Source: Glycera tridactyla
Taxonomy: Eukaryota
Assembly (NCBI GenBank): GCA_965644265.1
Contig: OZ286465.1
Location: forward strand, 7,130,001 to 7,194,000
Direction: 5' to 3'
DNA: 64,000 nucleotides
Part shown: positions 10,159 to 36,589 of the stretch, piece after piece
How positions within the stretch are numbered: position 1 is the first letter of the stretch
How the letters are laid out: each line of letters starts with the position of its first letter
The notes under the pieces: generated by a model
The model's database searches: none
Seen by the model: the letters and a program-made list of their open reading frames with translations, nothing else
What the model was told of the DNA's origin: nothing
Made by a program: the position numbers and the translations under genes

Positions 10159-11392
10159 TAGGCCTGTAGGCCCCAAAAGAATGGCAGCAATACCACAGCA
10201 TGACTCCTGTCTCCGAATATGAAAGTAACACAAAACATCAATCTCACCAACTTACAATTTAATCGAATGGTATCTCATAAAAACAACCTGAAGTTTGACA
10301 TGAGAGTAGTACCTATGCAAGTCAACATCATCTGTAGCTCTGAAATTTAAGCTCATTGGAACCTTTTTCTGGGGAGTTACCTTTTATTGATGTGTATTGG
10401 TTTCATAAATTTTAACCTTCTGTTAGGGACCCAGAAGGAGGAGTTTGGAGAATGATCCCACCCATGCCCATTGCACGGGCGTCACAATGTAGCACAGGTG
10501 GAGCTGATGTGACGTTGAACCCCCAACAAAACAAAAAAAACAAATATCGGGATAACTTCAGAACACGGTCCTAAATGCAATGAACAAATAAAGCATTTGA
10601 CATGGCTGCTGAAGTGGCTGCCTAGCCTAATAAGAACGAATCTATGAACTAACTGTGTTAAATTCCCTTCGCGTAAGGGGAAAATCACCCCGGGGGAAGT
10701 CTGAAGCCATGTTTGCAGCCATTTCAGCAGCCTCATCAGCAGCCACTTCGTATTCTGAGTAAAAATGAAACCCGAGATAGTTTATGATGAAATAAAGTAC
10801 ATATTTTCTCACTTTACATGTGTTATGTTGATTTGTAAACAGCCGTATGTCATCCCTAATGTGATGTAATACTATCCGCATCCATAACTAAATCGAAAAG
10901 TAAATCAAGGAAATTACCTTAAGATTCCGTGTGCAGCATTATCGTATCAATTCTAAATCAGTAAATAATCAGACCAGAAGTAAGTGAATCGGCGCCAAGA
11001 AGAAGGAGTGTCATTGCGCACAGAGAAAATAGTTCCTTAGTTACTGTCATGTTTTCTATGAATTAAACGATCGTTTTGGCGTCATACCTCTTCAAATGTG
11101 CTTTTCATACTAATTTGATGTGAACAGTGGTTTTAAATGACTTTGAACCCGGATTCCGATTTTAGTGTAATTCGCGGCGAAAATGACGCAACCAATCAGC
11201 GTGTGAGATTTGGTCACGTGACCTAGCGGGATGCAGTCACGTGACCATTTCACCAGTCAACTCTTTCACTTTTGAAATTCGCTTGCGTTACGATCTCACA
11301 CGATATGGAGTATATTTGAGTGGACCAGAACACGAGAAGATTCAATTTCTTTTCTACGTGAAAAGAATGTTCTACGAAAAGGATGTTACTGC

Positions 11393-12235
11393 ATGGATTG
11401 CCAAGTATGGATGAGGCAGGAGCGATACAATCAAAGAAAAATTGATGGATATGTCTTTAAGTGTCTGTCATGCAAGTTGCGCAAGTCCATCCGTGATGGT
11501 TCATTTTTGTCCAAACAAAAAATGGAATTCCGGTATGTTATCATGCTTCTGTACTTCTTCGCAAAGAACATAGCCATCAATGTAGCCTCTCAGATGTGTA
11601 ATGGTGTGGTTTGCGAGCACTCTGTTACTGATTGGTTCAACCTATTCAGAGATCTGATGTGGCGTTACGTTGACAAGAATGAGGAGAAAGTAGGAGAACC
11701 TGGAACCATAGTTGACATTGATGAAAGCTTGTGGAGAGGAAAAGCCAAGTACCACAGAGGCAGACATCCCCCTAATGCTCCTTGGATTTTTGGAGACACA
11801 CAGAAAGTTATTTTGCGTCAAGTCGAATCTAGGACAGCTGAGGTTCTTCTAGGTTGCATAGAAGAGATGATTGAGCCAAGAACCACAATCATATCAGATG
11901 AGTGGAGGGCTTATAATGGGATAAGTCAGCACAGAAACCACTACATACATAAGACAGTTTGTCATGCTGAAGACTATGTAAATCCGGATGACGATGAAGC
12001 CCATACACAGTCTATGGAAGGATTTTGGGGTAATGCTAAGCTGTTGATCAAACGTATGCATGGTGTGAGACATGATAGGTTGGGACCATATCTGAGAGAG
12101 ATACAGTACAGGTGGAACCATAAAGGTCAGGATACCTTCGAAGACCTGCTTCAGCTGATGGGAACTTATTACAACGTAACAAACAACGACCTGCCAGCAG
12201 AAGTTCTGGCAGCCATGCCTGATGCGCGCCTTTAG
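11393..12235 (+). CDS. Merlin / IS1595-ISXO2-like DDE transposase
   Basis: Motifs VDIDESLW, IISDEWRAY and HTQSMEGFW, plus an N-terminal Cys ribbon (CYCMDC...FKCLSC). The frame is open from 11276 but the first ATG is at 11393. TIRs not found. Confidence 0.9.
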   Translation: MDCQVWMRQERYNQRKIDGYVFKCLSCKLRKSIRDGSFLSKQKMEFRYVIMLLYFFAKNIAINVASQMCNGVVCEHSVTDWFNLFRDLMWRYVDKNEEKVGEPGTIVDIDESLWRGKAKYHRGRHPPNAPWIFGDTQKVILRQVESRTAEVLLGCIEEMIEPRTTIISDEWRAYNGISQHRNHYIHKTVCHAEDYVNPDDDEAHTQSMEGFWGNAKLLIKRMHGVRHDRLGPYLREIQYRWNHKGQDTFEDLLQLMGTYYNVTNNDLPAEVLAAMPDARL

Positions 12236-15510: not shown

Positions 15511-15719
15511 TAGTTATGATTAAGGATATCCGAATGCATTCAAATTAATAATTACATTTGGAATTAAGTGAAATATTTAATTTACCTCGTTGGTCTGTAG
15601 ACATCACCAGTAATTTGCACATCAATTCTTGTTGCTTTCGTCCATCTGGAAAAAAAAATGTGCAATTCATTATGTGATTCATTATGAGATTCATAATTTG
15701 ACATTTTACTCATAATTTG

Positions 15720-16800
15720 CATATATTCATTAACGGATAGGAGAAAAATTGAAGACCGCATTTTCACACTGTCATCAGTCAATATTGAATTTTTACTCCC
15801 ATCCGTCAATATCACACATTCAATGACGGAATGGAGGAAAATTGAGGACCGCATTTTGATATAGATCCGGTGGGGTCAACGTCATAAAAGGGTCCTCATA
15901 AATTCTATTTATTTTTCAATCATTCAATCATTCAATATTGATTTTTCACACTGTCATCAGTCAATATTGAATTTTTACTCCTATCCGTCAATATCATACA
16001 TTCAATGACGGAAAGGAGGAAAATTGAGGACCACATTTTGATGTAGATCCGGTGGGGTCGTCATAAAAGGGTCCTCATAAATTCTATTTATTATTCAATC
16101 ATTCAATCAGTCATCAGTCAATATTAAATTTTTACTCCTATCCGTCAATATCATACATTCGATGACGGAAAGGAGGAAAATTGAGGACCGCATTTTGATG
16201 TAGATCCGGTGGAGTCAACGTCATAAAAGGGTCCTCATAAATACTATTTATTATTCAATCATTCAATCAGTCATCAGTCAATATTGAATTTTTACTCCTA
16301 TCCGTCAATATCATACATTCAATAACGAAAAGGAGGAAAATTGAGGACCGCATTTCGATGTAGATCCGGTGGGGTCAACGTCATAAAAGGGTCCTCATAA
16401 ATTCTAGTTATTTTTCAATCATTCAAAAAGTCATCAGTCAATATTGATTTTTCACATTGTCATCAGTCAATATTGAATTTTTACTCCTATCCGTCAATAT
16501 CATACATTCAATAACGGAAAGGAGGAAAATTGAGGACCGCATTTTGATGTAGATCCGGTGGGGTCAATGTCATAAAAGGGTCCTCATAAATTCTAGTTAT
16601 TTTTCAATCATTCAATAAATCATCAGTCAATATTGATTTTTCACACGTCATCAGTCAATATTGAATTTTTACTCCTATCCATCAATATCATACATTCAAT
16701 AACGGAAAGGAGGAAAATTGTGGAAAAGTGAGGACCGCATTCTGATGTAGATCCGGTGGGGTCAACGTCATAAAACGGTCCTCAGAAATTCTATTTATTT
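15720..16800 (+). repeat. Tandem satellite-like array, ~160-185-bp unit, ~6 copies
   Basis: Recurrent GTCATCAGTCAATATTGAATTTTTACTCCTATCCGTCAATATC...GATCCGGTGGGGTCAACGTCATAAAAGGGTCCTCATAAA. Unit length varies through an internal sub-duplication. Confidence 0.95.
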
Positions 16801-17581
16801 TTAAAACTAGTGACAATTCGAGAGAGAGAGAGAGATAGATAGAGAGAGAGAGAAAATTAATCATGCAATAAAGGGTAATAACACATGTATTTCATTTATT
16901 TCAGGTCTGGCTCAACAGTATATACAATTGACCTCGTGCAACAAAGGCAATAATCCATTCGGAGAAAATCGATCGGTATTAGTTTCTACAGTCGTCACCA
17001 GACTCTGTGGGTTCCAACATTGGCGTGCAGGTGATTTCTTGTTTGCAACTAACGGATCTAAAGAGAACTATTAATTCCATGATTGTCCGACAGGGGTGTG
17101 TAAGTTTATTCGTGTTTGCGACTACCGGATTGTAAACGAACTATCAGTTTTACTTGTTTCCGTACACATACGTGCCAGTGCATAGGGAAGTACGCCTGAC
17201 GGATCGACACGGAACTAATAATTTCACAAGTAGTCGTTGAGAGGTGTCGCATCACGTACGCATTTCGGACATGCGGAAAGAAGGGAACTATTAGTACCAT
17301 ATTTCAACACGGAGTGGCACGCAAGTGCACAAGGGAATTCCCTGCTTAGAATGACGTAGGCGCATCTATTTTGATGGAATACCCATAGCCATGATGACGT
17401 AGGCGCACTTTTATCATGTTTTTCAGACGGAATTTCCTTTAGTTAGACCTAAAATATGTCATTTAAAATTAAAATGAATTATCATTGCATACGTGGACAT
17501 CCAATGGCGCCATTATTATTGTTTTGAAGTCTGAGGGTTTTTTTCATTCATTCTAAATAATCGTGTTATTAAATACTCACA

Positions 17582-18540: not shown

Positions 18541-18808
18541 CCCCCCCCCCCCCAGGTTTATTAATTTAACCTGGGGATCTATACTTACCCATTTCTCCCT
18601 CAAATTCTGCATTCCCCAGGCCGAAGTGCCTACGTGCGAACATAACTACAAAACTTTTTAGGGAGACAGCCCTCCCGTTTATGGGATCCACTAGATGGCT
18701 CCCCCTACTATGCCTCCCGACGTCACCTGGCAACCGCTGTGTCTCTGTGTATTTTTTCAACGAGCTTATATATAGCTCTACAGCGGGGACGGACGGGAGG
18801 GACCATCC

Positions 18809-18903
18809 AATTTGAGGGAGAAATGGGTAAGTATAGATCCCCAGGTTAAATTAATAAACCTGGGGGGGATCTATCTGTACCCATTTCTCCCTCAAATTCT
18901 GCA
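18809..18903 (-). other. DIRS internal complementary region (ICR, circle-junction copy)
   Basis: The first half is the reverse complement of 18547-18610 and the second half of 26076-26111, joined through GGGGGGG-ATC. Confidence 0.95.
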
Positions 18904-18952
18904 ATGAATATGACACGGATGGAGGGTGTAGAGTCATAAGACTAATATATAT

Positions 18953-19330
18953 CTCCGTGTCTCTCAGGAAGAACCTATACCCCTAAAGTAGGGTAATGTT
19001 ACCAAACCCGAGTATTTAACTTGTACAATATATAGACCAGGAGTCCCAACTCCGTGTCTCACGGGAAACAACCCATACCCCTAAAGTAGGGTAAAGGTAG
19101 TCAGCACCCGTGTATTAAAAATGTACAATATCAGACCAGGAGAAAAACTCCTTGTCTGTCGGGAAGACTTCCTACCCCTAAAGTAGGGTAAAGTCGCCGA
19201 TGCCCGACTATTAAAACTATGTACAATATTGACCCAGAGAAAAACTCCATGTCTCTTGGGGATCATATCTGACCTCAGACTAAAAATGTCCCCAAGTCTT
19301 CAAAAGGTATAAATGTACATACAGTAATAT
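18953..19330 (-). repeat. 97-98-bp structured tandem repeat in the DIRS 3' UTR (3 full and 1 diverged unit)
   Basis: Units start at 18953, 19050, 19148 and 19245; invariant TACCCCTAAAGTAGGGTA hairpin in units 1-3; compensatory stem changes between units. Confidence 0.85.
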
Positions 19331-19351
19331 AAAAAACATCAGTAATTACAT

Positions 19352-22252
19352 TTACTCATTTGGAGTGATTACTGATTGAGCCATTACTAAGGGTCCCAAG
19401 GAATATAGATCTAGTGCGTGACCGCACATATCCCTTAGGTAATATGAAGCGAAGGTATTCCCAGACTTCCAGAAAGCGGCCCTCAATAATTCCTCTACTG
19501 AACTAGCCTGATTCAGTGAATTCCAGGATGTCGCTATTGCCCGAACCTCATGGGCTGAGATAGAGTCTGGAAGATCTTTTGACCTTTCTGCTTCTTCATA
19601 AGCTGATCTCACCACCTGTTGGATCCAGGCTGAAATTCAATCCACTCTGATTTCACTGGATGTACCTGGACTAGGGGGAATAAATAGCCGAACTCTATTC
19701 CCTCTAAGAGGTTCAACTTTCTGTAAGTAAAAACGTAAGCTCTTACAGGACAAAGAAATGCTCCTCTGTCGTTGCTATTAGGTGGTAAAGCCGGGATTAT
19801 CACTCCTGGTGACTTCTTTGTTGGTTTCTGTCCCTTGGCCAAAAACCCCAGTACAGAAAATAGTTGTACTGAAGTCATATCAGCGGCAAATCGGACGGAT
19901 CCTCTCGAACCTGAAAAGGCATGAACTTCGCTTCGGCGTCTACCAGTGCCACCAAGAAAGCTGTTTTCCTGGTCAAATCTAACAAGGAACAATCTGCTAT
20001 AGGCTCAAACCTTGAACCTTGAAGAAATTTCAAAACAACTGATAAGTCCCATTGGGGAACAGTCCTTTGTGACACTGGTCTCTCCAGTTCAAAATTACTC
20101 TGCAAAGCTTTAATATTCTTATGATTCAACATGCTACCATCAGTAAAAGCAAAAACCGATTGCATCGCATTTCTATAACCTCTGATGGTCGAAGGGGATA
20201 ATCCTGATTCAAACAGGTAGATAAAAAATTCTACCACTGACGGTGCAGAGGGACGCTGTGCTCTCTACACCATCCTGTCCACTTCTTCCATCTTGAGTCA
20301 TAAATCTTGGCTGATGACAGCCTGACGGACCTAGCGATCCGCTCTGCTGCCTTTGCAGAGTAACCCTTCCTGGAGAGGGCACCCCGGATAGACACCAAGC
20401 AGTCAAATTCATAACCTGAGGGCGAAAATGATGAACCAGTTTGGTGCCTACCACTTGAGTCATGAGATTCTTCTCGTCTGGCAGTTCCAACGGAAGATCT
20501 ATTGAAAGTTCTAAGAGGTCTGGAAACCACGACTGATTCAGCCACCAAGGGGCCACACAAATCAGTGTGATCTCCAGACCTCTCAGATGTCTGAGAATCT
20601 CTTTGATAAGAGCTGTCGGGGGGTAGATATAAGCCGTCCCGAAACGATTCCAATCTACTGCTAGAGCGTCAACCGCAAACGCTCTCGGATCTGGGTACGG
20701 GCATATGAATACTGGCAGTTTGGAATTTGCTGGTGTAGCCATGAGGTCTATTGTGGGGGAAAGTTTGTATTTCAGAGTTATCTGATTGAAGATTGTCTGG
20801 TCCAACGACCATTCTGTTTGTATTGGTGTTGCTCTTGACAGAGCATCTGCCAGAACGTTCCTGCGTCCTGGTATATGACGCACTCTGATCGTGACCCCCA
20901 ATTCCTTGATCAACATAAATATCTGCCATGCGATTCCGCATAAAAGAGCTGACCTCGTACCCCCCTGTTTCTGAAGGTATGACACAGTCGTCGAGTTGTC
21001 TGTGAATATCATCACAGTCAGATTCCTCACCCATTGGGAGAATTCATTCAAGGCTAACAGAACAGCCTCTAATTCGAGGGCATTTATAGAACAACCTATA
21101 TGAGACTGAGGCCAAGTCCCTGCTTTCTGTCTGATTACCTGGCCTGTTGTGAGACATGCTCCCCAACCTTTCAGAGAAGCGTCCGTCATAATCGTTGCAG
21201 ATGGTTGTGGAGGAGAAATCAGAATTCCCTGATATACGTTCTCCTTCCTCTGCCACCACTCGAGGATCTCTAAGATCTACTTGGGAATTACAATCAATAT
21301 TTCCATGGAGTCGGAAAACGGTGTCCATCTGGACAGCAGAAACATCTGCAGGGGTCTCATGAAAATTCTTCCCAATGGTATGAAGTCTGCCATGCTCGAC
21401 ATGTGACCTAATAATCTTAGAATAGCCCTGACTGGTTGCCGAGGCCTCCTGAGAAAGACTCTCACACACAGATCCATGTTGCTCACTCTCTTCAGGGACG
21501 GACGGACCATCCCGGATTGGGTGTCGAAATCGAGACCCAGATAAGTGAACTGCTTGCTTGGACAGAGGTCTGACTTCTGCAGATTCACAATCCAACCCAG
21601 GCTGGCCGTCATTTCTAGAACGTAGTCCAATTGATGAGTTAAAACAACTGGATCTTGGTGCCTCAGCAACCAGTCGTCGAGATAGAAATGAATCTTGATT
21701 CCTCGACTGTGTAGATGGTGCGCCAGTTCCCTCAACACCATTGTAAATACTCTCGCCGCCGAACAAAGACCGAACGGGAGGGCACGAAACTGGAATGCCT
21801 CCTCTTTGGATATGGCGAATCTTAGATATTTTTGAGAGTTTTGGTGAATCGGGATGTGGAAGTAAGCGTCTTTTAAATCTATTGATACTGTCCAATCTTG
21901 GGGAGATATTGATTTGACTACAGATGTCGCTGTCTCCATCTTGAATTTTGCGTTTCTGACTATCCTGTTCAGAGGCTTTAAATTTATGACTGGACGAAAG
22001 CCTCCCGTTGCCTTCGAGACCAGGAAGAGGTTGCAATAAAATCCCGGTTCCGCATTTTGATTGACTGGGATTATTGCTCGTTTGTTCAACATCTCCCTGA
22101 TCTCGTGGAGCAGTGCCTGTCTCTTCATCTGCCCCTTCGGTAGTGAAAAGGGCAAAAAGGTTTTCGAGAGTGGTGGCTGCTCCAGAAAGGACAACGACAG
22201 GCCCTCTCTTACTATCTCTAACACAAATCTGTTCTGAGTTAGGAGATTCCAT
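19352..22252 (-). pseudogene. DIRS tyrosine recombinase ORF with long N-terminal extension overlapping RT/RH
   Basis: ORFs 22252-21044, 21034-20669 and 20653-20231 share one frame (two stops); three frameshifts follow. Catalytic motifs RRSEVHA, SAHEVRA and WKSGNTFASYY. Confidence 0.92.
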
Positions 22253-22295
22253 TGATTTGGAACTGCAAAAGACGCCCCCCTACTACTTCCACATC
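20209..22295 (-). pseudogene. DIRS reverse transcriptase - RNase H - adenine-methyltransferase-like ORF
   Basis: VVGGRL start motif then a frameshift at ~22258; IDLKDAY and FYLDDWL (RT); TDASLKGWGA, TDNST and NVLADALSR (RH); IDLMAT...AYIYPP (MT-like). One in-frame TAG at 21277-21279. Confidence 0.95.
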
Positions 22296-22317
22296 TGAAG
22301 GACTGGCGCTCGCCATC

Positions 22318-24934
22318 CTAGGGCTGGCGCTTCTTGCCACGTCCTCTCTTATTAAATGTCACCTTGAATTCAGTTTTTGCATTTGACTGATCTTGATTTT
22401 GTCCTGATACATTCTGATCTTGTTGTCTATTTGAACTCTGGCCACCACCTCTGCCACGACCACGACCTCTTGACTGTCCTCTGCCACGAGAACTACTGCG
22501 ACCTCTCTTCTTAGGGAATCCCCGAGAAGAAGAAGAGGAATAATCTGAATGCTTTGGACCAAAATCATAAGCCATCTCTCTCTGCCTCCTCCCTACCTCA
22601 AAAGACTGTTTGGAAGCCTCGGCTAACTTGCCTCCAAACAAACAACTCAGGCTGGCCCAAAGGTAAAGCTCTCAGCTTATCCTTTGTATCTTCGTCGAAA
22701 TCAGTACCTTTTATCGCCGCAGATCTTCTAGACAACTCCATGTTGCTGACGACCTTCAGGACCAACTGTGTAGCATGTTCTACCGCCTGAAGGCCGACAC
22801 GGATGGCTTCCTTTTGTTTGGCTTTAATGTCTTTGATGTCTGCCTCAGACATCTCAGTTGAACACAAACCCGCTGCCAGCGTGAAGTCCGCATAGCTCAT
22901 AGCCTTCAAAGATTCCCGTAGGATAGTTTCATCATTGGAAGGCTTTAATTCATTTTTGGATGTCCTACCAAAATTTGAATAATCACGGTCAATCTGTGGA
23001 GCCTGCACTATATATCTGCGTGATCTATCCCCTGTATCACGAATCCTATAGGATCTTGAGTTACATCCATAAACTCTTGGTGCAGTGACTTTGAAATATT
23101 TAGTATTGGCTTCAACCAGACCCCCCATATCTAATTTGAAATCCTCAAGAGGTGTGGTGATTGGCAGGATCTCCTGCTTCTCTTCTCTGCCTTGCAAAGC
23201 CTTGTCCAATATTTCCTGACTTCCAATTAATAAAGGAGAGATAGGAAGAGCTGTCTCAATAGATGCATCTACCGCCCTAGTATTTAATTCATCGTCAAAA
23301 GACGTATCCATTGTCATTCTAGCAGCCATTGTCTTTCTATGATGGACAGATTCAGGATTAGGGATCAAGGTAGGGAGAACATCTGAAGTAAATCTCCTAA
23401 AACTCCTCATCCTTCTTTTCACCTCTGGTTTCTCTTCTTCACCATCAGAATCTCCCACCGGATCTTTGACTTCATTCACCTCCTTTCTCTCTAATCTTTT
23501 CTCCACTTTTTCCATCCTAACTTTCATGGCTTGCATCATAGCATCTCTTGACATGTCGTCTATACTTCTTTGAGATCCTGTAGGTCTAACAAAAGCAGAA
23601 TTGTCAGTTTCTCCCATAACAGCTGACCTCCCTGGAGCACTAGCAGTACATGGAATGGACCTAGGCTTTTTAGCAGGACGAACAATCTCATCTGCTTTCC
23701 TTTTCAGGGCTTGCTCTGCTTGAGATACCCTGCGGGGCATCCCATAACCCAACTGGGCCCTCGTATCTGCCATTAAAAGCATCAGTTGTTCCATGGTCTT
23801 CTTGATTGACTGACTTCTGTCAGTAAAATCACTGACTCCTGTACCTCTAACCTCAGACCTAGCAGGAGAATTAACTGAGGTATCAAGGTTATGAATTGAC
23901 TCGTCTCTGGGTACCTCCCCATCTGATTGCTCTGGTGGATCATCTACCTCATCAGGATCATTGACCCACACATCCCCAGGACCAGACGCATCTTCCCCAC
24001 TGGAATCCGCAATATGTCCCGTGTCAGGTAAGGATTGACATCCTCGCCTTTCTGAACTATATTTGTCCAGTAGCCGATCTATCCTCAGTCTCGGATATGA
24101 CGTGCCTCCGTCATTCCTACTGGACCTGTCCGGAGATTGGGGTCCCGAGACAACTTTTCCCAAATCAGAGCTCAGCCTTGAGCTTTTGTTCTGTGCAATA
24201 GGCAAAGCCTTTCGCCCTGACACAGAACTACCTCCAGCCTTGGAAGCAACTGATCTGACCGAGTTTGCTTTGCCCACTCGAATGGGAATTCTACTCTTTT
24301 GAGTAGACTGTGCCAAGGGAGCTGATTCTTCTGGCCACTCAAAATCATCCTGGAAATCCCTTATTTCAGGAGCTGTCTCGATTTCATCATGTGGCTCTTC
24401 ATCAAGCATATCATCATTATTCAAAAGACCCATTTCCTGCAATTCAATATCTGGTTGTCTAATCTCTTGAGATTGTATAATATCATGTGACTTCTGGTCC
24501 TTCAATCCTTCTGCTTTCTTTGCTGCCCTTTGCAAGGCAATCTGTCTTCTCTTACGTAAAGAAGAAGCTAAGTGAGGGCGTAACAATAACTCCTCGGACA
24601 TACTGTCAATACTATCGACCTGAGAACCTTCAGAAGGGATTTTCAAAACTTTAAGTTCCACAGAGGGCATCCTTGCTGGCTCAGAAATACGAGATGGGAC
24701 AGGGCTAGCTCCTACAGTAGTACATGATTTAGTTTTCTTCAAGGATAGCTTCCTTCTTTTATAATGGGCAGACCATTTCTCCAAAGGCCACTGAGAACAG
24801 ACACCACACACTTTTTGACCAAATTTAAGGACATCCTCGGACTTGCCGCAGTCTCTACAGGAGGGACATTTGGTGTGATCGTCCCATGTCTCCATGACAT
24901 GGCCACAACTACCCTTTTTCTGACCAGACGACAT
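22318..24934 (-). pseudogene. DIRS gag-like ORF1
   Basis: Likely ATG at 24934 (MSSGQKKGSCGH...CPSCRDC...CGVCSQW, Cys/His-rich N-terminus). A 4-bp AAAC slip at ~22635 shifts into the RGRG-rich C-terminus (22641-22318). Confidence 0.85.
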
Positions 24935-24989
24935 GATTCTTGCTTGTATGGAGTATATTTCAAAAGAGGGTAACACCAACACGGGTACT

Positions 24990-25320
24990 GGAGTGAATAT
25001 GTGCACTTTATGTGCAATCAATTGTGATTTGTGTATAGTCAAAATTTCACATCCGGACACTCAACACCTGCTGATATGAAAATCACAGACCCCCAGAGGG
25101 CCATTTCAAAGATTGGTGCAGAGTGACCTAGAACAAGACAACTGATGGCATTCACAGTGCTGGGTGAGTATGTGCACTTTGTGTGCAATCAATAGTGATC
25201 TGTATATCTATTCAATATTTCACATGCGGAGACTCAACACCTGCTGATATGAAAGTCACAGACCCCCAGAGGGCCATTTCAAAGGTTGGTGCAGAGTGCC
25301 CTAACAAGACACTGATATAT
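24990..25320 (-). repeat. ~173-bp tandem duplication in the DIRS 5' leader
   Basis: CTCAACACCTGCTGATATGAAA(A/G)TCACAGACCCCCAGAGGGCCATTTCAAAG at ~25060 and ~25233. Confidence 0.85.
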
Positions 25321-26110
25321 CATCATTAGTACCTGAAGTCGCCGTCGCGCTAGTCGATGGCGCTGCTAGAATCTGAATTATTTCTGAAAACAGAACCACC
25401 TACGGAATTCTAAAGAACTAATAGTTCCAAAAGTCGCCACGCTTTTTTGTGGTGGCGCTGCTAACTGCGTGGAGAAAAACAGAACCACCTAGCGGCGATC
25501 CTGAACACCATTAGTTCCAATTATCGCCGCGCTTTTAAATGGTGGCGCTGCTAACTTTGCGGATACGCGAGCGAACAAACGATCGTACAAACGATCGCGG
25601 CAATTATGCGACATAATACACGAAGTGACCAACGAACAAACTGTAAACAAACATGTTGGTCAAAATATCACACAAAATCACAATTCAACTGCCATCACGG
25701 CACCGCGCACCCCTCCCGTGCTCCGTGCACCCTTCTCAATACTCCAAAATACAGGCTAAACAGTTCGCAAACTATTCAATAATCCTTCACTGATCTGGAT
25801 AATATCACATAATGAACATAATATCCTTTGAATGAATGAATCTGAAAGGAAATGAATAGCCGTAGGCCACGTAAAACAAATTTTTACGGAGCCCGGGTAT
25901 TCTCCAACTGCTCACAACCAAGCGAAGTTGAAAAATACACAGAGACACAGCGGTTGCCAGGTGACGTCGGGAGGCATAGTAGGGGGAGCCATCTAGTGGA
26001 TCCCATAAACGGGAGGGCTGTCTCCCTAAAAAGTTTTGTAGTTATGTTCGCACGTAGGCACTTCGGCCTAGGGAATGCAGAATTTGAGGGAGAAATGGGT
26101 ACAGATAGAT

Positions 26111-26615
26111 CATTGTGGTATGGATGAAAAACCAAAGTGTTGATCACGTTTCTTCTAATATTTTCTCCGCCGTCACGTTGTTGTTTTCGCTCAAAAACAT
26201 TGAAGTATATGTCTGTCAGCTCACTCGGACTGTCAATATAGATCCACGGAGAAATACCGTTCATGTAGTTCTTTACACCTTTTGCTATGGTAACATTAGT
26301 ATGATAGTATGAGTCTTTTCCTGGAATCATATAAGCACACGCTTTGCAAAAACTCTCTGGTTTTTCATGTTCAAACTCTAATTGACTCAGCTCTTGCATC
26401 TGTGTGTTCCTGATTCTCAATGGGAAATCCACCAAATTCCTCACACATTCATACTTCGAGCAGCATTGCCTTAAATCGAGGAATACTCCACAGGGCCTGA
26501 ACATCAACTGCTCATTGGGATCCTACAGGTGGATCCTAGCTAGAGGATCACTTGGATTCAATCGTGTACGCACAAATGGGTGTCCAAAAACACCTTTGCA
26601 ATCCAGGTGGGACAT
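26111..26615 (-). pseudogene. 5' part of the unknown ORF split by the DIRS insertion (Cys-containing N-terminal half)
   Basis: ATG at 26615 (MSHLDCKGVFGHPFV), in-frame TAG at 26523-26525, then ...PCGVFLDLRQCCSKYEC...FCKACAY...VFHPYHN up to the DIRS edge. Confidence 0.7.
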
Positions 26616-29535: not shown

Positions 29536-30434
29536 TTATTTCACATGTATGGATTCTGGCCGAATGTATGCTCGAAAGGCATTTGAGCGCCATCTCCCTA
29601 GAGACATGATCTGCTGATCAGTGAATCCCTGCCTAACCATATCCGTGGCTTTCCCAATGCGGAAAGAGTGCGTGTTGAAGTTCCCTGACCAGCCCAAAAC
29701 ACTAATACATCTTCGTAAGGTGCGGGAAATCTACGCCCTGGTTAGGGGCTCACCCTTCCTGCTGGTGTAAGCATAATGCCTTGAGGGGGGAGCCATGAGT
29801 AAGTATTGTTGGTAGAGCCTGACTGGGCAAACCGTTGATACTTAGATGGATGGAGCTGTAAATTTGGGGTTGACCCTTCTGAATGTTTGTACGACCTGAA
29901 TGTCAAGGCTAGGACCTTTTGTGGCCCATTTCCCTTCAACTGGAGATCCCTGCTCTTAAGAATGTGAGTGAAAGTGTTTGTGACACAGATTTCACTTGCT
30001 CTCAGGCAAGCATGATACATAACTGCAAATATCGCCTTATACAAGGCTATGTTGTAGGGGTCATTGAAAACATGTTCGATGGCAGGGACCAGACTGACAA
30101 GGTTTTGTAATCCTAGGGCTGTACGCTTAGTGCTCTGCCCATCTCTTCGTGATATCGCCTTCAACAATTTCGCGGCACGGAATGCAGACGTTGGGTCTGG
30201 TTCAAGGCATATTTTATGGGCAAATGCTATGGCAGATAGGTGGGTTCGTATTGTCGAAGCCCGCATACTTTTGAGTGCTAGGTGGGAAATAAAGAGTGAT
30301 ATATCATCAGCAGAGGCTGGGATGGCCCGTCGTTTGCCCAAAATGTGATTCATGAATTGTGAGAGGAGTTGCCAACTACGCTCATAGGACCTCCTGGATG
30401 ATGCTGTCAGGCTCTGTTTCAGCAATCCTGCCAT
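29536..30434 (-). pseudogene. Ngaro tyrosine recombinase
   Basis: YHACLRASE (Arg I) in the annotated ORF. After a frameshift at ~29840 and an in-frame stop: HSFRIGKAT...LGRWRSNAFRAYIR, with stop at 29536-29538. Confidence 0.93.
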
Positions 30435-32311
30435 GGCAGTGCGAAGTTTTCTAGCAGCATTTCCTTCGGGATGGCTGTGGCTTGCGCATCCATGTCATAT
30501 TTGGTCAGCAATGCTGGAGAATCCTGCAAGTGGGAAATTTTGTCAGCAAGGATGTTAGTGACACCTGGTATATGTTCAGCTTCAAACGATATGTTATATT
30601 TCAGAAAGAGAGACATCATTCTGCGGATAATATGCATTAACTGTTTGCTTTTTGAGGTTTTCTTATTTATTGCGTAGGATATGGCTATATTATCAGTCAT
30701 CAGGCGTATTGAACTGTTCTTTATTCTGGAGCCAAACATGTAAATCATGACTAGGATAGGATAAATTTCACGAACTGTGATGTCCAATTTCTTCCATGTT
30801 CTGGGCCACCTTGCTATTATCCATGCCTTTTCCAGGCAGCCTCCCATCCCAAGATCTGATGCATCTGTGTACATCTTAAGGGAGTCAGATGTTACTTGGG
30901 GTTTTCTAAAAATGGAGACCCCATTGAAATTCTGTAAGAATTCGAGCCATACTAAAAGGTCGGCCTTCATGCCATGTGTTATTCGAATTTTGTGGTAGGG
31001 CTTTTCGATTTTCATTGTTGCATCAATGAGACGACGTAAGAAGGCCCGGCCAGGGAGGACACTCGTGGCAAAATTCAATTCTCCGATGAGTGACTCAAGC
31101 TCCTCGTTCTTCAATTTTGAAAGAGTCAATACCTCTTGAATCACGTCTGTCAATTCTGAGATTTTGCTAACTGGGAGTCTTGCCTCAAATGCCACCGAGT
31201 CCAATTCAATTCCCAGAAATGACAGGCAGGTCACTGATGGCTCGGTCTTATTCTCGGCTATTGGAACCCCCAGGTCAGTTGCTAGTCTCATGAACCCATC
31301 TAAATATTGCTTGCAAATTGCTGCCTCTTTGGCGATAAACAGAAAATCATCTAGATAATGCAGGACAACTGCATAGGGGAAGTGTTTTTTGAAAATCCAT
31401 TCCATTGCTGAGGAGAAACGTTCAAAAATTTGGCATGAACTTCCCAAGCCTTGGGGCAGACATTTGTCATAATAATATTGTTCCTCCCATGCCATTCCCA
31501 TCTCGCAATACTCTGATGGGTGAAGGGGGATGAGTCTGAAAGCACTCTTTATATCTGTCTTGGCAAGGTAAACACCCCTCCCCAAATCTTGGATGTATTT
31601 CATGGCATCACAAACGTTAGAATAGCTGACTGTTTTGCAAGATTGGGGAATCAAGTCATTAATCGATGTGCCATCATATGGATGGGAGAGATCGTGTATG
31701 AGACGAAATTTACCACTCTCTCTCTTGGCTCGTAATGACAATGGGGATACTTTGAATTCAGAGAAAGGCGGCTGGCCATGGGGGCCCGATATTCGACCTA
31801 GTGATATTTCCTCCTGCAGTTTTCGAGACACAGATGAGGGATGTCTTAATGTTATGCTTGCATTGCGGACCGGACCGGAGCAAGCAGCAATGGGCCCTTC
31901 ATGGCCAGTCATGAAGCCATGCATAAAGCCCTCAGTTAGGTACCAGAATTCATCTAGGGTATATCCTTCTAGGTGAAACCTAAGCCTGTCTATTCGCACT
32001 GGGGTTGGCAGCTTTGACAAATTTTGGCTTGCCGGAAGGAGAAACAGTGGGCTTTGATGGGTCATGGTCTTTGTCCTGCTGTGCACCGGTATTGGTTTTG
32101 CTATAGCATGGGAAGTAGGATGGGTGGCGTTTCTCACACTGCCAGCATTGGTGCTTGTAGCGACAGTTTTCATTATTCGGGCAACGGACCCCTTTGGTGT
32201 GGAACTGGATGCAGAATCCGGGTGGGATAGGTTGGGTCTGGGACTGACTTTGGCCACGAAAATTACCCTGTTTCTGGCCCCGGGTCCCACTCGATCGGTA
32301 TTGTTGGTCAA
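30419..32311 (-). CDS. Ngaro reverse transcriptase / RNase H ORF (uninterrupted, 630 aa)
   Basis: LPTPVR, FRLIHDLS, AKTDIKSAFR, YLDDFL, TDASDLGMG, TDNIA and NILADKIS; the first ~110 codons overlap gag. Confidence 0.95.
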   Translation of the reverse strand: MTNNTDRVGPGARNRVIFVAKVSPRPNLSHPDSASSSTPKGSVARIMKTVATSTNAGSVRNATHPTSHAIAKPIPVHSRTKTMTHQSPLFLLPASQNLSKLPTPVRIDRLRFHLEGYTLDEFWYLTEGFMHGFMTGHEGPIAACSGPVRNASITLRHPSSVSRKLQEEISLGRISGPHGQPPFSEFKVSPLSLRAKRESGKFRLIHDLSHPYDGTSINDLIPQSCKTVSYSNVCDAMKYIQDLGRGVYLAKTDIKSAFRLIPLHPSEYCEMGMAWEEQYYYDKCLPQGLGSSCQIFERFSSAMEWIFKKHFPYAVVLHYLDDFLFIAKEAAICKQYLDGFMRLATDLGVPIAENKTEPSVTCLSFLGIELDSVAFEARLPVSKISELTDVIQEVLTLSKLKNEELESLIGELNFATSVLPGRAFLRRLIDATMKIEKPYHKIRITHGMKADLLVWLEFLQNFNGVSIFRKPQVTSDSLKMYTDASDLGMGGCLEKAWIIARWPRTWKKLDITVREIYPILVMIYMFGSRIKNSSIRLMTDNIAISYAINKKTSKSKQLMHIIRRMMSLFLKYNISFEAEHIPGVTNILADKISHLQDSPALLTKYDMDAQATAIPKEMLLENFALPWQDC

Positions 32312-33005
32312 GGTGGGGCACTACTGCTGACCACGGACAGACCCCAAACTGACGGTCCCACCTGAAATGATGGTCATATTCTGCCCATTTTCCCCCACTC
32401 TTATAAATTTTCCTAATTTCTCTGCCATAAGTAAGTAGCTCTTTAATCTCAGCTCTATTGGCGGGAATCTCACAATAAACAGCCATGAATGATTCCCAGG
32501 CCTCTACCCATGAGTCAAAGTTTCTCAATAGTTTTGGCTTGCTAGCCACAACCCTAATTCTCCCCTGCTTCAATGTCAAGGTGTCTCCATCTTCTAAATC
32601 GTTGGGCGTTTGGATAGGTTGATGAGGGGTTGTAATGGGATGTCAAGATTTGCATTGTCCTGAGCAACCTCAATATCTTCAGGTAAGGCTTCGCCCTCCT
32701 GCCACTGCTCGTATGTTGTATTACCTGTGGGTGCCGTGATTGTGGCATTAGGTGTAGATGTCTGGGGTTGTGGAGCAGTCAACGTAGTCGACAGTGGCTG
32801 GTTTATAAGGTCAGTCGTTCTCGGTCGTTGTGCTCAGGCTCAGGGGCCTTCCTCCTCCGTTTTTCAGGCCGTGCTTGGTCGCTCTCTGTAACTAGGCCCT
32901 GATTCTGCTCCAGAATGGACACTTTTTGCTGAAGATCAAGCAGTGTTTTGTTCAGCTCACGCATCATCTTGGCCGAGCCACGCTTTTTGCGAATTTTTGG
33001 AGGCA
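31980..33005 (-). pseudogene. Ngaro gag-like ORF1 (frameshifted pieces)
   Basis: PPKIRKKRG start-like segment, coiled-coil, FDSWVEAWESF, WAEYDHHFR and a Cys/His finger CIQFH...CRYKHQCWQCEKRH. Confidence 0.85.
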
Positions 33006-33470
33006 CTAGAATGAAGAATAATATGTCATTGCCATGAAGGCATGACAAGACCTCTCGTGGACACGGCATATGCCCAGGACAAGGTATAATGAAGCGGCAT
33101 TTCGCACACGGCATGTGTGCCTGGAATAATAGATGAGTAATGCATGTGCGTGCACGTCATGTGCGGCAGGACAGATACTAACTCATGCATGGGCTCGGCA
33201 TAGAGGAGATCCCTGAAGACAGGCACAGCCTAGCAGGAAGGTGACTGGTCCAAATTTGGAGGTATATGCATGGCATATGCATGTTGAGAAAAAACCCCAA
33301 CACTGAGGGCTGACATCAGGTATACACGACAAGTGTTGGGTAAAGACCGGTATGGTTTACATAGGCTTTGAGTGGTATCTGGAAGCCACAGTGCTGTATT
33401 GCACAAAACAATGGCTTGGTGACTGGTTAGGAGAACAGCGGAGAGCTCGTTTCAGTCATCATTATTATTA

Positions 33471-33649
33471 CAGTGAAAAACCCGTCTTGGGAGACCACCC
33501 CTAACGCCAACAAAAAGTGGTCTCTCAAGACAGGTGGTTTCTCATTGGAGGTATATTTGACTATGCCAAATAGGGGGGGGGGGAGTCAATAAGGGGGGTC
33601 CCCATTAGGGGGTGGTCTCCCAAAAGAGGGTTCAAGACAGGCTTCACTG
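33471..33649. mobile_element. pogo/Tc1-like MITE nested inside the Ngaro element
   Basis: TA|CAGTGAAAAACCCGTCTTG ... CAAGACAGGCTTCACTG|CA. Confidence 0.8.
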
Positions 33650-33796
33650 CATTACATCAATGAATATAAGAGGAGGAAGAAATTTAAGAGGGGGGGGGGG
33701 GCGGAGGGCTTCTTGAATCATTAGGACCAAGTGCAATTGACAAGTGCCCCCAATTAGAGAGGCATACAGCTGACAACCAGTGAATTACAAGTAAGA

Positions 33797-34498
33797 TTAT
33801 TGATCGGAAAGGTGGTGTTTCATTGCAAAGAAGACACTGCGTGTGTATTTTTGCATTGGGGAAACACTATCTGTGTTGTCAATCCCAGGTGGGTTGACAA
33901 CTGTGCGCAAATGGATCCGATCATCACTCCATGTGTCTATCGGGGCTGGGGTGGCAACATCGAGGCCCGAGAATCCCCGTAACCGTTCGAAGTGTACGCA
34001 TTCCGTGTTAGCACAAAGCCTTTTCAATGTGCTGTTGTATTCAACAGCATTGAGGAGGAATTCCTCTTCAGTGCATGACATATTAGCACCACGAGGTATC
34101 ACGGAGAATATTGATACTGATCGGACAGAATGATGTCGGTGAATCAGCTTCGTAGCTGCAGCACATGTGCGGCTGGCAATTTCTGCAGCCCCCACTGCAT
34201 CTTTCCCGGACAACCGAGCGAGATCATTAGTACCTATGTCAATTTGAATATGCCGAGGTTTGATGGTACTTATCATGTCACGCACTCTCTTACTGTACAG
34301 ATCATCAATCATATTGATTCCTTTCGAACAAGTATACATATGTTTACAGAAACGATCATCAGTGAAGCCAGTACGGATGGCTAACAAACGTGCTGAGTTC
34401 AGGCATTCTATGCCTACATCTGCACCTCTAATACGTGACAATTTATCATCTGCATATCGGCGAACAAATAAATGTCCAACAAACAAGGCAGTGGCCAT
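33797..34498 (-). CDS. SGNH/GDSL hydrolase-like ORF inside the Ngaro element
   Basis: Block I FVGHLFVRR (Ser replaced by Leu), block III DIGTND and block V DRIHL; ATG at 34498; lies between A1 and gag. Confidence 0.88.
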   Translation of the reverse strand: MATALFVGHLFVRRYADDKLSRIRGADVGIECLNSARLLAIRTGFTDDRFCKHMYTCSKGINMIDDLYSKRVRDMISTIKPRHIQIDIGTNDLARLSGKDAVGAAEIASRTCAAATKLIHRHHSVRSVSIFSVIPRGANMSCTEEEFLLNAVEYNSTLKRLCANTECVHFERLRGFSGLDVATPAPIDTWSDDRIHLRTVVNPPGIDNTDSVSPMQKYTRSVFFAMKHHLSDQ

Positions 34499-36589
34499 GA
34501 CAATGATTGGCACTTACTAATGAAGTTGTGGTGATGTGTCTCACTCGGCAGCCGGGTGGCAAATGGGAAGAGTGCAATGCAGCATGGTCCCTTGTGGGAT
34601 GCCAACTTCCTGTGACCCAGATATATGCCAGAACTTCCTGTGACCCAGATATCTCGAACAGGGGTATGCTCTTGATGGAGTGATGTGAGGGGGGTCACTC
34701 CTTCATCCATTTCACCGAAATTATATTACCTTGTAATATATGTTAAGGACCTTGTTATGAAGTTACCCCCAAATATCTCCTCAACTGATCATGAACCAAG
34801 AGCCATCTCTCTATAAAAACCACTGATGCATCCAAGTGGTCTCCATTCACATATCTCACTTTAACAAAATTGCTCTCCACCTGTGCTATTTTAGGGACAT
34901 CAGTACTCAAAAGTCAATTTAGATGATCACATAACAAGATCCATAAATCTCTCAGCAAATTGGAGACAAATTGAAGATTGGGAAACTGCTGACATGCAAA
35001 ACCCAATCCAACAGGAGACCCCTTCTGCAGAACAACGTTCCTGTTTGGCATGGATAACTTTACCTTTGATGAGAGACCACTTTTTAGTGACATTTAGAGC
35101 AGTCTTTGGTCACTGGCTTCACTGTAATTGATTTAATTAAAATGGCATAGCTATGATTTTGCAATGGATGAAAATATATGTAGTGAAGAACCTTGATGGC
35201 AAGGCCATCTGTCATCAATATCATTTGGGACAAAATACTGTAGTGAAATTTGTGATGAGGGACCACCCTAAATGTTATTTAAAAGAGGTCTCCCAAAAGT
35301 GGTCTCTCATCATAGGTATATTTGACTATGTCAAATGAAGGAGCTGCCATAAAAAAATGGTCTCCCCCCTTAGGTGGTCTATTGTCAGAGGGTCTCTCAT
35401 CACAGGCTCCACTATAAAACTATAATGCATGTGGAGGGACCAAACAAGATAAGAAATTGGGGTCTGTGTGAATGGGAGGGGGATGGGGAGAGCACTATCA
35501 GTACATCTAGGTCAACTGGTAGATCCTGAAGCCAATGATGTCTGGTTGCTCTGCTGGTGTAGTACAGACCCCCACTTCCTCCCACCTGCTCAACACCTAT
35601 AGTTAGGTCCTGAATATGATGGCAGAGAGACAGCATATGGTCGGGTGGATACTTCAGAGTGCTGTCGTTTTGACAGACCCATCTTTTGACTGTTTTTATA
35701 AAGTGACACAGTGGTGACTGGCAGAATTACACTAACATTTCATATTTTTGGCCAGCATTCATTAGCAAGCTTTTTGATATGTCTCACATTGATTCTGCTT
35801 GCTCATGATGGGATGATCTTTACTTTGTATCACATACCGCATTCAGTTATGTAACAGTTCAAAGGATGTGATGAAAGTTTGTTAATGTATGTCACCATAG
35901 CTATTTTATGATAATACATCCCATCAGCAGCAGCAGGACTGTTCACAACCCTGTTGGAGGATGAATATGGTGCAGACCTCAAGTCATTGCACTCATATAT
36001 AATCTCTTTCATAGCAAATTCCCCATTCTGGGAAACTGTTTGATACATCCATACACATTTAGGCCTCAAACACCATCTCTCACCTGACATAAGGTGTAAG
36101 TGAACCCTGTCTGGAATGGGGTCTTTTATTGGAAGTTGCCCTCTGGTGAATATTCTTCACAAAAATTGTTCAGCCCCTAGTGGTCACTGTGGTCACTAGA
36201 GGATTCTCACTTCCAGGGAAAATAGTGTCACTTCCTGTACATACCTGCATGACTCATCATGACAGGAGTCAGACATGTCTCAAACTCCTGAAGTATCACA
36301 GGACCAAGAAACCATCCAATTCTAAAGGGCATGACCAACAAATCCCAAATATCCTAAGTAACCCTATGACCGGTAAGTTTCATTTATTTCTTTATATTCA
36401 AAAAGATAGTTCAAGTAAATTTAGAACATAGTTTTTTTCTTCTTATAATATTCACAACTTGAGAGCCACTGTCAATTGATCAGATACTCTGCGCATTATT
36501 CAAAATATGCAAACTGGAATATAACTGAAATATCATGTTTATTATGTGAAATATGTTGGTCAATATTTGAGACTTATTCATCAATCAAA

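What the first reader, a model, noticed from the sequence alone, without database searches (positions are those of the whole stretch)
18953..19330. Covarying structured-RNA repeat in the DIRS 3' UTR, between the YR stop and the ICR
SEEN: four ~97-bp units keep a stem while changing its sequence: CTCAGG/CCCGAG, CACGGG/CCCGTG, GTCGGG/CCCGAC and CTTGGG/CCCAAG. The unit-1 mismatch becomes a G-U pair only on the minus (element sense) strand. An outer stem (CTCC..GTC/GAC..GAG), an inner GACTT/AAGTC or ACC/GGT stem and an invariant TACCCCTAAAGTAGGGTA hairpin are nested. A large unpaired segment always keeps the palindrome TGTACA. The core does not match the hammerhead CUGANGA/GAAA. INFERENCE: a selected RNA structure (packaging or dimerisation signal via the palindromic loop, or an unknown ribozyme) that I cannot assign to a known family.
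Basis: partly seen in the sequence, partly recalled or inferred. Interest (0 to 1): 0.7.

Follow-up and report, generated by a model that had tools for sequence, protein, structure and literature searches.

The report
Folded repeats in DIRS retrotransposon tail
A jumping gene carries four copies of a folded RNA module in its tail, each paired with a short motif that looks like a docking site for the host protein Pumilio, which hints that the element plugs into the host's control of messenger RNA.

Summary
The repeat is real: four units of about 97 nt lie between the recombinase stop (19352) and the ICR of a DIRS1-like retrotransposon on the minus strand. The 'outer stem' has pairing probability of at most 0.02. 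Each unit is two adjacent hairpins joined by one A, and the last hairpin closes at 18912. The 'invariant' hairpin is in 3 of 4 units. There is no Rfam match and no match in 56 other loci. UGUACA lies in an A/U-rich linker that resembles a Pumilio/Nanos site. In 38 other DIRS 3' regions UGUAHAUA occurs 10 times (0.9 expected, 2 antisense) and TGTACA 18 times (3.8 expected). Best reading (0.45): a selected RNA scaffold that presents Pumilio-type sites. Rivals: palindrome-driven dimerisation (0.2), a Gag/RT signal beside the ICR (0.2), an unknown ribozyme (0.07). No function was shown. The scan's notes held no look-alike; one note describes a folded tail in Ngaro elements.

The parts
18547..26111 (-). 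DIRS1-like tyrosine-recombinase retrotransposon that holds the repeat
   Evidence: RVT_1, RNase H and integrase N-terminal Pfam hits; inverted terminal repeats 18576-18756 / 25931-26111, 98%
19352..20668 (-). Tyrosine recombinase gene, broken in this copy (frame changes near 20252, 19940 and 19740, and an in-frame stop); its stop codon is at 19352-19354
19226..19319 (-). Unit 4 (5'-most): UGUACA, linker, hairpin X with a different 30-nt interior, one A, hairpin Y
19128..19225 (-). Unit 3: UGUACA, linker, hairpin X, one A, hairpin Y
19028..19127 (-). Unit 2: UGUACA, linker, hairpin X, one A, hairpin Y
18903..19027 (-). Unit 1 (next to the ICR): hairpin Y is longer and its 3' side bears a pyrimidine-rich tract also seen before the ICR of other DIRS
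   Evidence: found at 53 bits by a model trained on units 2-4 only
19255..19296 (-). Stem X of unit 4 (arms 19291-19296 and 19255-19260)
   Evidence: pair probability 0.98-1.0
19158..19208 (-). Stem X of unit 3 (arms 19203-19208 and 19158-19163)
   Evidence: pair probability 0.69-0.81
19060..19112 (-). Stem X of unit 2 (arms 19107-19112 and 19060-19065)
   Evidence: pair probability 0.99-1.0
18963..19012 (-). Stem X of unit 1 (arms 19007-19012 and 18963-18968), with a G-U pair on this strand
   Evidence: pair probability 0.54 on the minus strand against about 0.23 on the plus strand
19231..19253 (-). Hairpin Y of unit 4 (two G-U pairs on this strand)
   Evidence: only about 0.23 in the whole-region fold
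19134..19156 (-). Hairpin Y of unit 3
   Evidence: pair probability 0.98 for most pairs
19035..19058 (-). Hairpin Y of unit 2
   Evidence: only about 0.27 in the whole-region fold
18912..18961 (-). Hairpin Y of unit 1, 8 perfect pairs (18954-18961 with 18912-18919)
   Evidence: relatives keep the stem with other interiors (loose ends and joints)
18978..18995 (-). 18-nt inner hairpin, copy in unit 1 (identical copies at 19076-19093 and 19173-19190; absent from unit 4)
19218..19229 (-). Unit-3 site: full Pumilio consensus UGUACAUA with A and U at -2 and -1, as in the hunchback NRE2
19120..19131 (-). Unit-2 site: 7 of 8 consensus positions, A and U at -2 and -1
19020..19031 (-). Unit-1 site: 6 of 8 consensus positions, A and U at -2 and -1
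19312..19323 (-). Unit-4 site: 7 of 8 consensus positions, preceded by a second UGUA; -1 is A, not U
18809..18903 (-). Internal complementary region: 18868-18903 matches the left end (26076-26111), 18809-18868 matches the right end (18547-18606)
   Evidence: both 100% complementary
18557..18562 (-). The only AATAAA or ATTAAA downstream of the repeats; candidate poly(A) signal

Best explanation
The repeat is a tandem expansion of a two-hairpin RNA module that sits next to the ICR in one clade of DIRS1-like retrotransposons. SHOWN: four units, the fold hairpin X - A - hairpin Y, compensatory change in stem X, and one UGUACA in the A/U-rich linker of each unit. INFERRED: on the element's mRNA the hairpins tie up the G/C-rich sequence and leave four easily opened linkers about 97 nt apart. 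Host Pumilio, helped by Nanos at the imperfect sites, binds them and represses or destabilises the RNA, or holds it untranslated, most likely in the germ line. The array would act as a dose-type regulatory cassette, laid out like the NORAD repeats. Pairing between neighbouring UGUACA copies is then a by-product or a weak switch.
For: Three of four sites have A and U at -2 and -1, the two positions whose change to C blocks Nanos on the hunchback NRE2; one site is a full consensus; Nanos relaxes the 3' half, and several weak sites add up (PMC4995099, passages). In 38 non-redundant 3' regions of other DIRS (13092 nt): UGUAHAUA 10 against 0.9 in shuffles (0 of 200 reach it) and 2 on the antisense strand; AUUGUA 13 against 5.0 (2 of 200) and 1 antisense. 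UGUAHAUA per kb: 0.76 in these regions, 0 in upstream coding DNA, 0.13 in the window outside the element. Five of 10 non-palindromic UGUAHA sites run on to the full consensus. Opening a site costs 1.5-4.9 kcal/mol against a median of 7.4 for 60 random 10-mers. Pumilio sites tend to pair with each other and predicted pairing did not reduce binding (bioRxiv 2024.05.03.592352, passages). NORAD units combine such sites with two hairpins (bioRxiv 033423, passages).
Against: Only 1 of 4 window sites is a full consensus (119 of 2000 shuffles reach one); unit 1 lacks both +7 and +8. The hexamer enrichment in other DIRS is almost all in the palindrome: TGTACA 18 against 3.8, but TGTAAA 6 against 3.5 and TGTATA 4 against 4.7, and 13 of 18 TGTACA sites are not full consensus. 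The consensus is in 6 of 38 regions only; 21 of the 38 had no ICR landmark and may include flanking DNA; 13 patterns were tested. Three of four sites are predicted mostly paired in the full 3' end. The reading does not explain why stem X, the single A, the GAC/GUC closure or the UUNAAKA linker are conserved. No binding or expression data.
Confidence: 0.45

Rival explanations
1. UGUACA is a pairing element. Copies pair in cis (closing three-way junctions of UGUACA helix, hairpin X and hairpin Y) and exchange into intermolecular duplexes, as Ty1 PAL1/PAL2 do, to dimerise or cluster the RNA for packaging by Gag.
For: Neighbouring copies are predicted to pair, P 0.2-0.7 on the sense RNA. Two copies of one unit gain about 5-6 kcal/mol as a dimer (no shuffled control). 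TGTACA is the top palindromic hexamer in 38 DIRS 3' regions, its one-letter neighbours are near background, and 4 of the 10 regions that have it hold three copies. Ty1 uses A/U-rich palindromes that pair in cis and then in trans (PMC6844567, passages).
Against: Pairing would accept any palindrome, yet one hexamer recurs and all 64 palindromes together are barely enriched (204 against 183). The strand-biased 8-mer and the non-palindromic full sites are not explained. The known signals lie near the 5' end. I found no report of dimeric DIRS RNA in searches (listings only).
Confidence: 0.2
2. The hairpin pair is a recognition site for the element's own Gag or reverse transcriptase, duplicated from a hairpin that precedes the ICR in many DIRS. 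It would load or pace the enzyme where end repair takes place. This can hold together with the best explanation.
For: Unit 1's 3' arm aligns with the pyrimidine tract just before the ICR in distant DIRS. Five of 8 hand-picked such regions fold with z below -2.5. Relatives in other runs keep the last stem and the start of stem X with other interiors. The RNA's 3' 60 nt can pair on the ICR.
Against: A contiguous-helix test was significant (at most 11 of 200 shuffles) in 4 of 14 other loci only. The two-hairpin model finds nothing in 56 loci. The duplicated units lost the pyrimidine tract. DIRS-1 still makes cDNA without its ICR (PMC7192593, passages).
Confidence: 0.2
3. An unknown self-cleaving or ligating ribozyme: a three-way junction that forms only when two tandem units pair through UGUACA, as minimal hammerheads do through a palindromic helix III.
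For: Predicted junction with short conserved linkers.
Against: No ribozyme family at E up to 10. No CUGANGA on either strand and no GAAA on the sense strand. The linker before the closing helix varies from 9 to 17 nt. Unit 1 has no downstream UGUACA. A cut would remove the essential ICR from the coding RNA (inference).
Confidence: 0.07
4. The fold matters on the single-stranded cDNA (for example for the recombinase), or is an unselected leftover of tandem duplication.
For: Both strands fold (z -5.67 and -4.74) and the stems form with DNA parameters. DIRS-1 cDNA is single-stranded (PMC7192593). Only four related units were available.
Against: Three G-U pairs in stems X and Y fall on the RNA sense strand and none on the other. 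Three double changes without a broken pair are improbable without selection.
Confidence: 0.08

Closest known systems
NORAD repeat units (bioRxiv 033423, passages)
   Same: Tandem units, each with a Pumilio-type site, a U-rich stretch and two hairpins kept by selection.
   Different: NORAD is a mammalian lncRNA with 12 units of about 300 nt and mostly consensus sites. Here the units are 97 nt, in a retrotransposon mRNA, with 1 of 4 full consensus sites. No homology is claimed.
Drosophila Nanos response elements of hunchback, bicoid and Cyclin B (PMC4995099, passages)
   Same: UGUA core with A/U just upstream; unit 3 matches hunchback NRE2 from -2 to +8; imperfect 3' halves in several copies.
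   Different: Those are tested sites in cellular mRNAs with no repeated hairpin scaffold described in the passages read. Binding here is untested.
Ty1 PAL1/PAL2 and retroviral dimerisation palindromes (PMC6844567, passages)
   Same: A/U-rich self-complementary hexamers that can pair in cis or in trans in a retroelement RNA.
   Different: Those lie near the 5' end, within a hairpin. Here four identical hexamers lie in 3' linkers about 97 nt apart.
ENE of the Evade retrotransposon (PMC12501189, passages)
   Same: A structured element between the last ORF and the 3' terminal repeat.
   Different: An ENE needs U-rich internal loops; the U runs here are in hairpin loops and linkers.
Tandem type I hammerheads of Penelope-like elements (PMC4209133, passages)
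   Same: Tandem units, a palindrome that can close a three-way junction between copies.
   Different: The catalytic core is absent.

Membership tests
DIRS1-like retrotransposon (host element) | RT, RNase H and tyrosine recombinase coding regions | tested here: met
   the recombinase is broken in this copy
DIRS1-like retrotransposon (host element) | Inverted terminal repeats and an ICR complementary to both ends (PMC3266345, passages) | tested here: met
   pairs I1, I2 and I4
DIRS1-like retrotransposon (host element) | Methyltransferase domain after RNase H | tested here: inconclusive
   Pfam gave only RNase H for 20209-21276 at E up to 0.001; not searched further
Pumilio response element | UGUAHAUA on the mRNA strand | tested here: inconclusive
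   met in unit 3; 7 of 8 in units 2 and 4; 6 of 8 in unit 1
Nanos response element | A/U at -2 and -1 before UGUA | tested here: met
   A and U in units 1-3; U and A in unit 4
Pumilio / Nanos response element | Binding and repression that depend on UGU | not testable with these tools
   needs binding and reporter assays
   one UUGAAGA in unit 4 only, no GAAA on the sense strand; no Rfam hit
Other Rfam ribozymes and cis-elements | Match to the family's covariance model | tested here: not met
   over the repeat only three matches at E 5.6-9.2, far below gathering scores
ENE triple-helix element | U-rich tracts in internal loops of a stem-loop | tested here: not met
   runs of five or more U lie in hairpin loops, in linkers, and on one side of one internal loop in unit 4
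Retroelement dimerisation signal | Self-complementary hexamer | tested here: met
   four copies
Retroelement dimerisation signal | Palindrome in a hairpin near the 5' end | tested here: not met
   linker position in the 3' region
Retroelement dimerisation signal | Dimer formation that depends on the palindrome | not testable with these tools
   needs native gels with Gag

The most novel reading that the evidence does not exclude
The unit is the core of a new ribozyme class that folds only when two tandem units (or two RNAs) pair through UGUACA, closing a three-way junction with the conserved UUNAAKA, single-A and AUAU linkers, and that processes DIRS RNA next to the ICR. Nothing tested excludes it; only a cleavage assay can.
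Probability: 0.07. Interest if true: 0.88.

Novelty: new variant of a known kind. Interest (0 to 1): 0.47.

Why it matters
How DIRS RNA is regulated, packaged and primed is largely unknown; the ICR is the cis-element shown to be needed in the paper read (PMC7192593, passages). This is a selected RNA structure right beside it, small enough to test directly. If the Pumilio reading holds, a class of selfish elements would carry host repression sites on purpose, in a NORAD-like layout, and the excess of such sites in unrelated DIRS 3' regions suggests that this is common. One set of hexamer swaps separates the Pumilio reading from the dimer reading.

Tried and rejected
No whole genome is held, so other copies in the host assembly could not be collected. 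Pattern scans of viral contigs: 0 hits for two repeat- or ICR-specific patterns and 1 hit for an ICR 18-mer in a 319-kb contig, treated as chance and not followed. Model R1 found nothing in 56 loci (best E 5.8) or in one symbiont genome (four other handles were not held). Unit 2 is missing from the table although it was in the training set, probably through overlap removal; the descriptor finds all four units and nothing in 56 loci. Sequencing runs: no RNA holder listed; all runs laid were contigs, so ends, strand and level of an RNA could not be read. Cytoplasmic polyadenylation elements: UUUUAAU follows two of the sites, but CPEs are not enriched in DIRS 3' regions (17 against 12.9; 4 against 2.8), adjacency is marginal (6 of 28 against 2.6; 55 of 2000; not matched for U content) and the window has 3 against 0.95 (106 of 2000); dropped. 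CFIm-type UGUA: the 4-mer is not enriched (75 against 65). A pistol-like or twister-like reading from short resemblances (recalled) was dropped: no Rfam hit, and unit 4 has a different interior. Rfam miRNA hits at 18808-18899 reflect the ICR's own hairpin. In one search the unit-1 hairpin Y row was queried one base out of register; its zeros were not used. In one search my anchors were placed by hand and allow no bulges. In one search, L002 and L003 were not used, 4 of 53 loci were dropped for less than 80 nt of downstream DNA and 11 of 49 as redundant.

Full report
Setting. The finding lies in a DIRS1-like retrotransposon on the minus strand, 26111 to 18547: a long first ORF with no Pfam hit (25060-22598), RT (22317-21277), RNase H (21276-20209), a recombinase gene ending at 19352, inverted terminal repeats that are 98% complementary over 181 nt, and an ICR at 18809-18903 that matches both ends at 100%. 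The recombinase of this copy has three frame changes and an in-frame stop. No whole genome is held for the window. That the host is an animal is my inference from the window's content.

The observation. Four units are present with stem arms 97, 98 and 97 nt apart. On the sense strand the 6-bp stem X is paired in 24 of 24 cells. Pairs 1-3 each show a change on both sides, pair 4 shows G-C to G-U, pairs 5-6 never vary. Dealing out the 3' letters anew gives p 0.016, and 71 of 200000 star-tree simulations with 7 random substitutions keep all cells paired. The pair counter on units 2-4 gave 93% of 57 cells paired, 4 pairs with a double change (10 of 500 shuffles) and 35-60% for slid partners. These tests use four related units, and the structure was read from them, so they are support and not proof.

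The 'outer stem' has probability of at most 0.02 under all four conditions tried. Each re-phased unit folds alone as hairpin X, one A, hairpin Y, with MFE equal to centroid and z from -2.7 to -4.3. In the whole region, hairpin Y of units 2 and 4 competes with longer-range pairing (about 0.25). The unit reads UGUACA, a 9-17 nt linker ending in UUNAAKA, stem X with a 30-41 nt interior, A, GAC...GUC, and an A/U spacer. The 18-nt inner hairpin is identical in units 1-3 and absent from unit 4. Strand: z-scores hardly discriminate (-5.67 and -4.74), but the three G-U pairs of stems X and Y are all on the sense strand.

Relatives. Contigs of four coded runs (three studies; X1 may be the window's own source) show families that share the ICR and 18904-18933 and then differ inside hairpin Y while keeping its 3' partner, and one that continues into a stem X arm with an inner hairpin of the same outer four pairs and another loop (loose ends of 30 letters, single contigs). 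A recombinase alignment brought 53 distant DIRS loci (34-54% identity) and two weak viral hits. A model built from units 2-4 finds unit 1 at 53 bits and nothing in 56 loci; a descriptor gives the same answer. So the module is limited to this clade in the data I could reach. Unit 1's 3' arm aligns with a pyrimidine tract that precedes the ICR in many of these loci, often in a hairpin: 5 of 8 hand-picked regions fold with z below -2.5, but a stricter test passed in 4 of 14. The array therefore probably grew by duplication from an ICR-proximal hairpin; this step is inferred.

The hexamer. In 38 non-redundant 3' regions of those loci (13092 nt; 17 cut at an ICR landmark, 21 taken as up to 600 nt), TGTACA occurs 18 times against 3.8 in shuffles and ranks second of all hexamers. 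UGUAHAUA occurs 10 times against 0.9, in 6 of 38 regions, with 2 on the antisense strand; AUUGUA 13 against 5.0, with 1 antisense. Upstream coding DNA has 0 such 8-mers in 52831 nt. The motif thus recurs without the structure, and with a strand bias. In the window, unit 3 matches the hunchback NRE2 from -2 to +8, and units 1-3 have the -2 A and -1 U that Nanos needs (PMC4995099, passages). Against a pure Pumilio reading: the one-letter neighbours of TGTACA are near background, 13 of 18 TGTACA sites are not full consensus, U follows the hexamer in 10 of 18 on the sense strand and 6 of 18 on the other, and only 1 of 4 window sites is a full consensus. The sites are among the cheapest stretches to open though often predicted paired with each other.

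Mechanism. Best reading (0.45): a selected RNA scaffold that spaces and exposes Pumilio(-Nanos) sites in the 3' UTR, for repression or storage of the element's RNA; the germ-line setting rests on established knowledge of Nanos and Pumilio, not on data here. Rivals: palindrome-driven dimerisation (0.2), a Gag/RT signal derived from the pre-ICR hairpin (0.2, compatible with the first), an unknown ribozyme (0.07), and a cDNA-level or unselected fold (0.08). The conserved single A, the GAC/GUC closure, the UUNAAKA linker and the threefold identical inner hairpin are not explained by the best reading.

Comparison with what is known. Rfam 15 has no match over the repeat near a gathering score. Hammerhead and ENE features were tested and not met. 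It is laid out like NORAD units and its sites look like Nanos response elements, but it is not a member of either on the evidence here. Paper searches listed no description of such repeats or of Pumilio sites in DIRS; I saw listings and abstract openings only, the library lacks most subscription papers, and no supplements were read (the annotation file of PMC3266345 could bear on this). Papers read as passages: PMC7192593, PMC3266345, PMC4209133, PMC4995099, PMC12501189, PMC6844567, bioRxiv 033423 and 2024.05.03.592352; of PMC4918198 only a reference-list passage. The scan's notes gave no look-alike by sequence or place; one note on other DNA describes a folded tail in Ngaro elements, which I did not test.

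Verdict. A real, probably selected RNA structure with a corrected fold; not found in Rfam or in the searches named; a new variant of a known kind (structured cis-elements in retroelement 3' regions). Function is untested. Interest 0.47.

Noticed in passing
L006-L056, 3' regions after the recombinase match: Pumilio-type 8-mers and TGTACA are in excess on the sense strand of distant DIRS; L006, L007, L042 and L047 each hold three TGTACA copies.
   Followed up: yes
L022:2840-2906, L027:2842-2912, L048:2834-2903, L033:2785-2900, L044:2770-2841: A hairpin with a pyrimidine-rich 3' side lies just before the ICR in several DIRS, with different 5' arms and sense-strand G-U pairs; no Rfam match at gathering score in the 15 loci scanned. 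A second C-rich tract follows the ICR in many loci and in the window near 18778-18805; it is G-rich on the cDNA.
   Followed up: partly
L019:1240-1420 and L004:2495-2670: Another DIRS has its own two-copy structured repeat of about 91 nt in the same place, unrelated to the window's unit.
   Followed up: partly
L007 and L011, 3' region: A two-copy short repeat that ends in a full Pumilio-type 8-mer in each copy.
   Followed up: no
window 18547-18606 with 18809-18868, and 18557-18562: The RNA's last 60 nt can pair perfectly on the ICR, and the only downstream AATAAA lies at the very end, so a full-length 3' end would fold back next to unit 1: a possible self-priming arrangement.
   Followed up: no
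L004 and L005: DIRS contigs sit inside a bacterial symbiont genome assembly, most likely host contamination.
   Followed up: no
window 29742-34513: A second tyrosine-recombinase retroelement on the minus strand (RT-like ORF, integrase N-terminal hit, an upstream hydrolase-like ORF by eye), Ngaro-like.
   Followed up: no
window 24993-25563: Two pairs of direct repeats (about 172 and 90 nt apart) in the element's 5' leader, the second with short inverted arms.
   Followed up: no
window 11276-12235 and 15678-16805: An ISXO2-like transposase ORF, and a satellite of 157-189 nt units.
   Followed up: no
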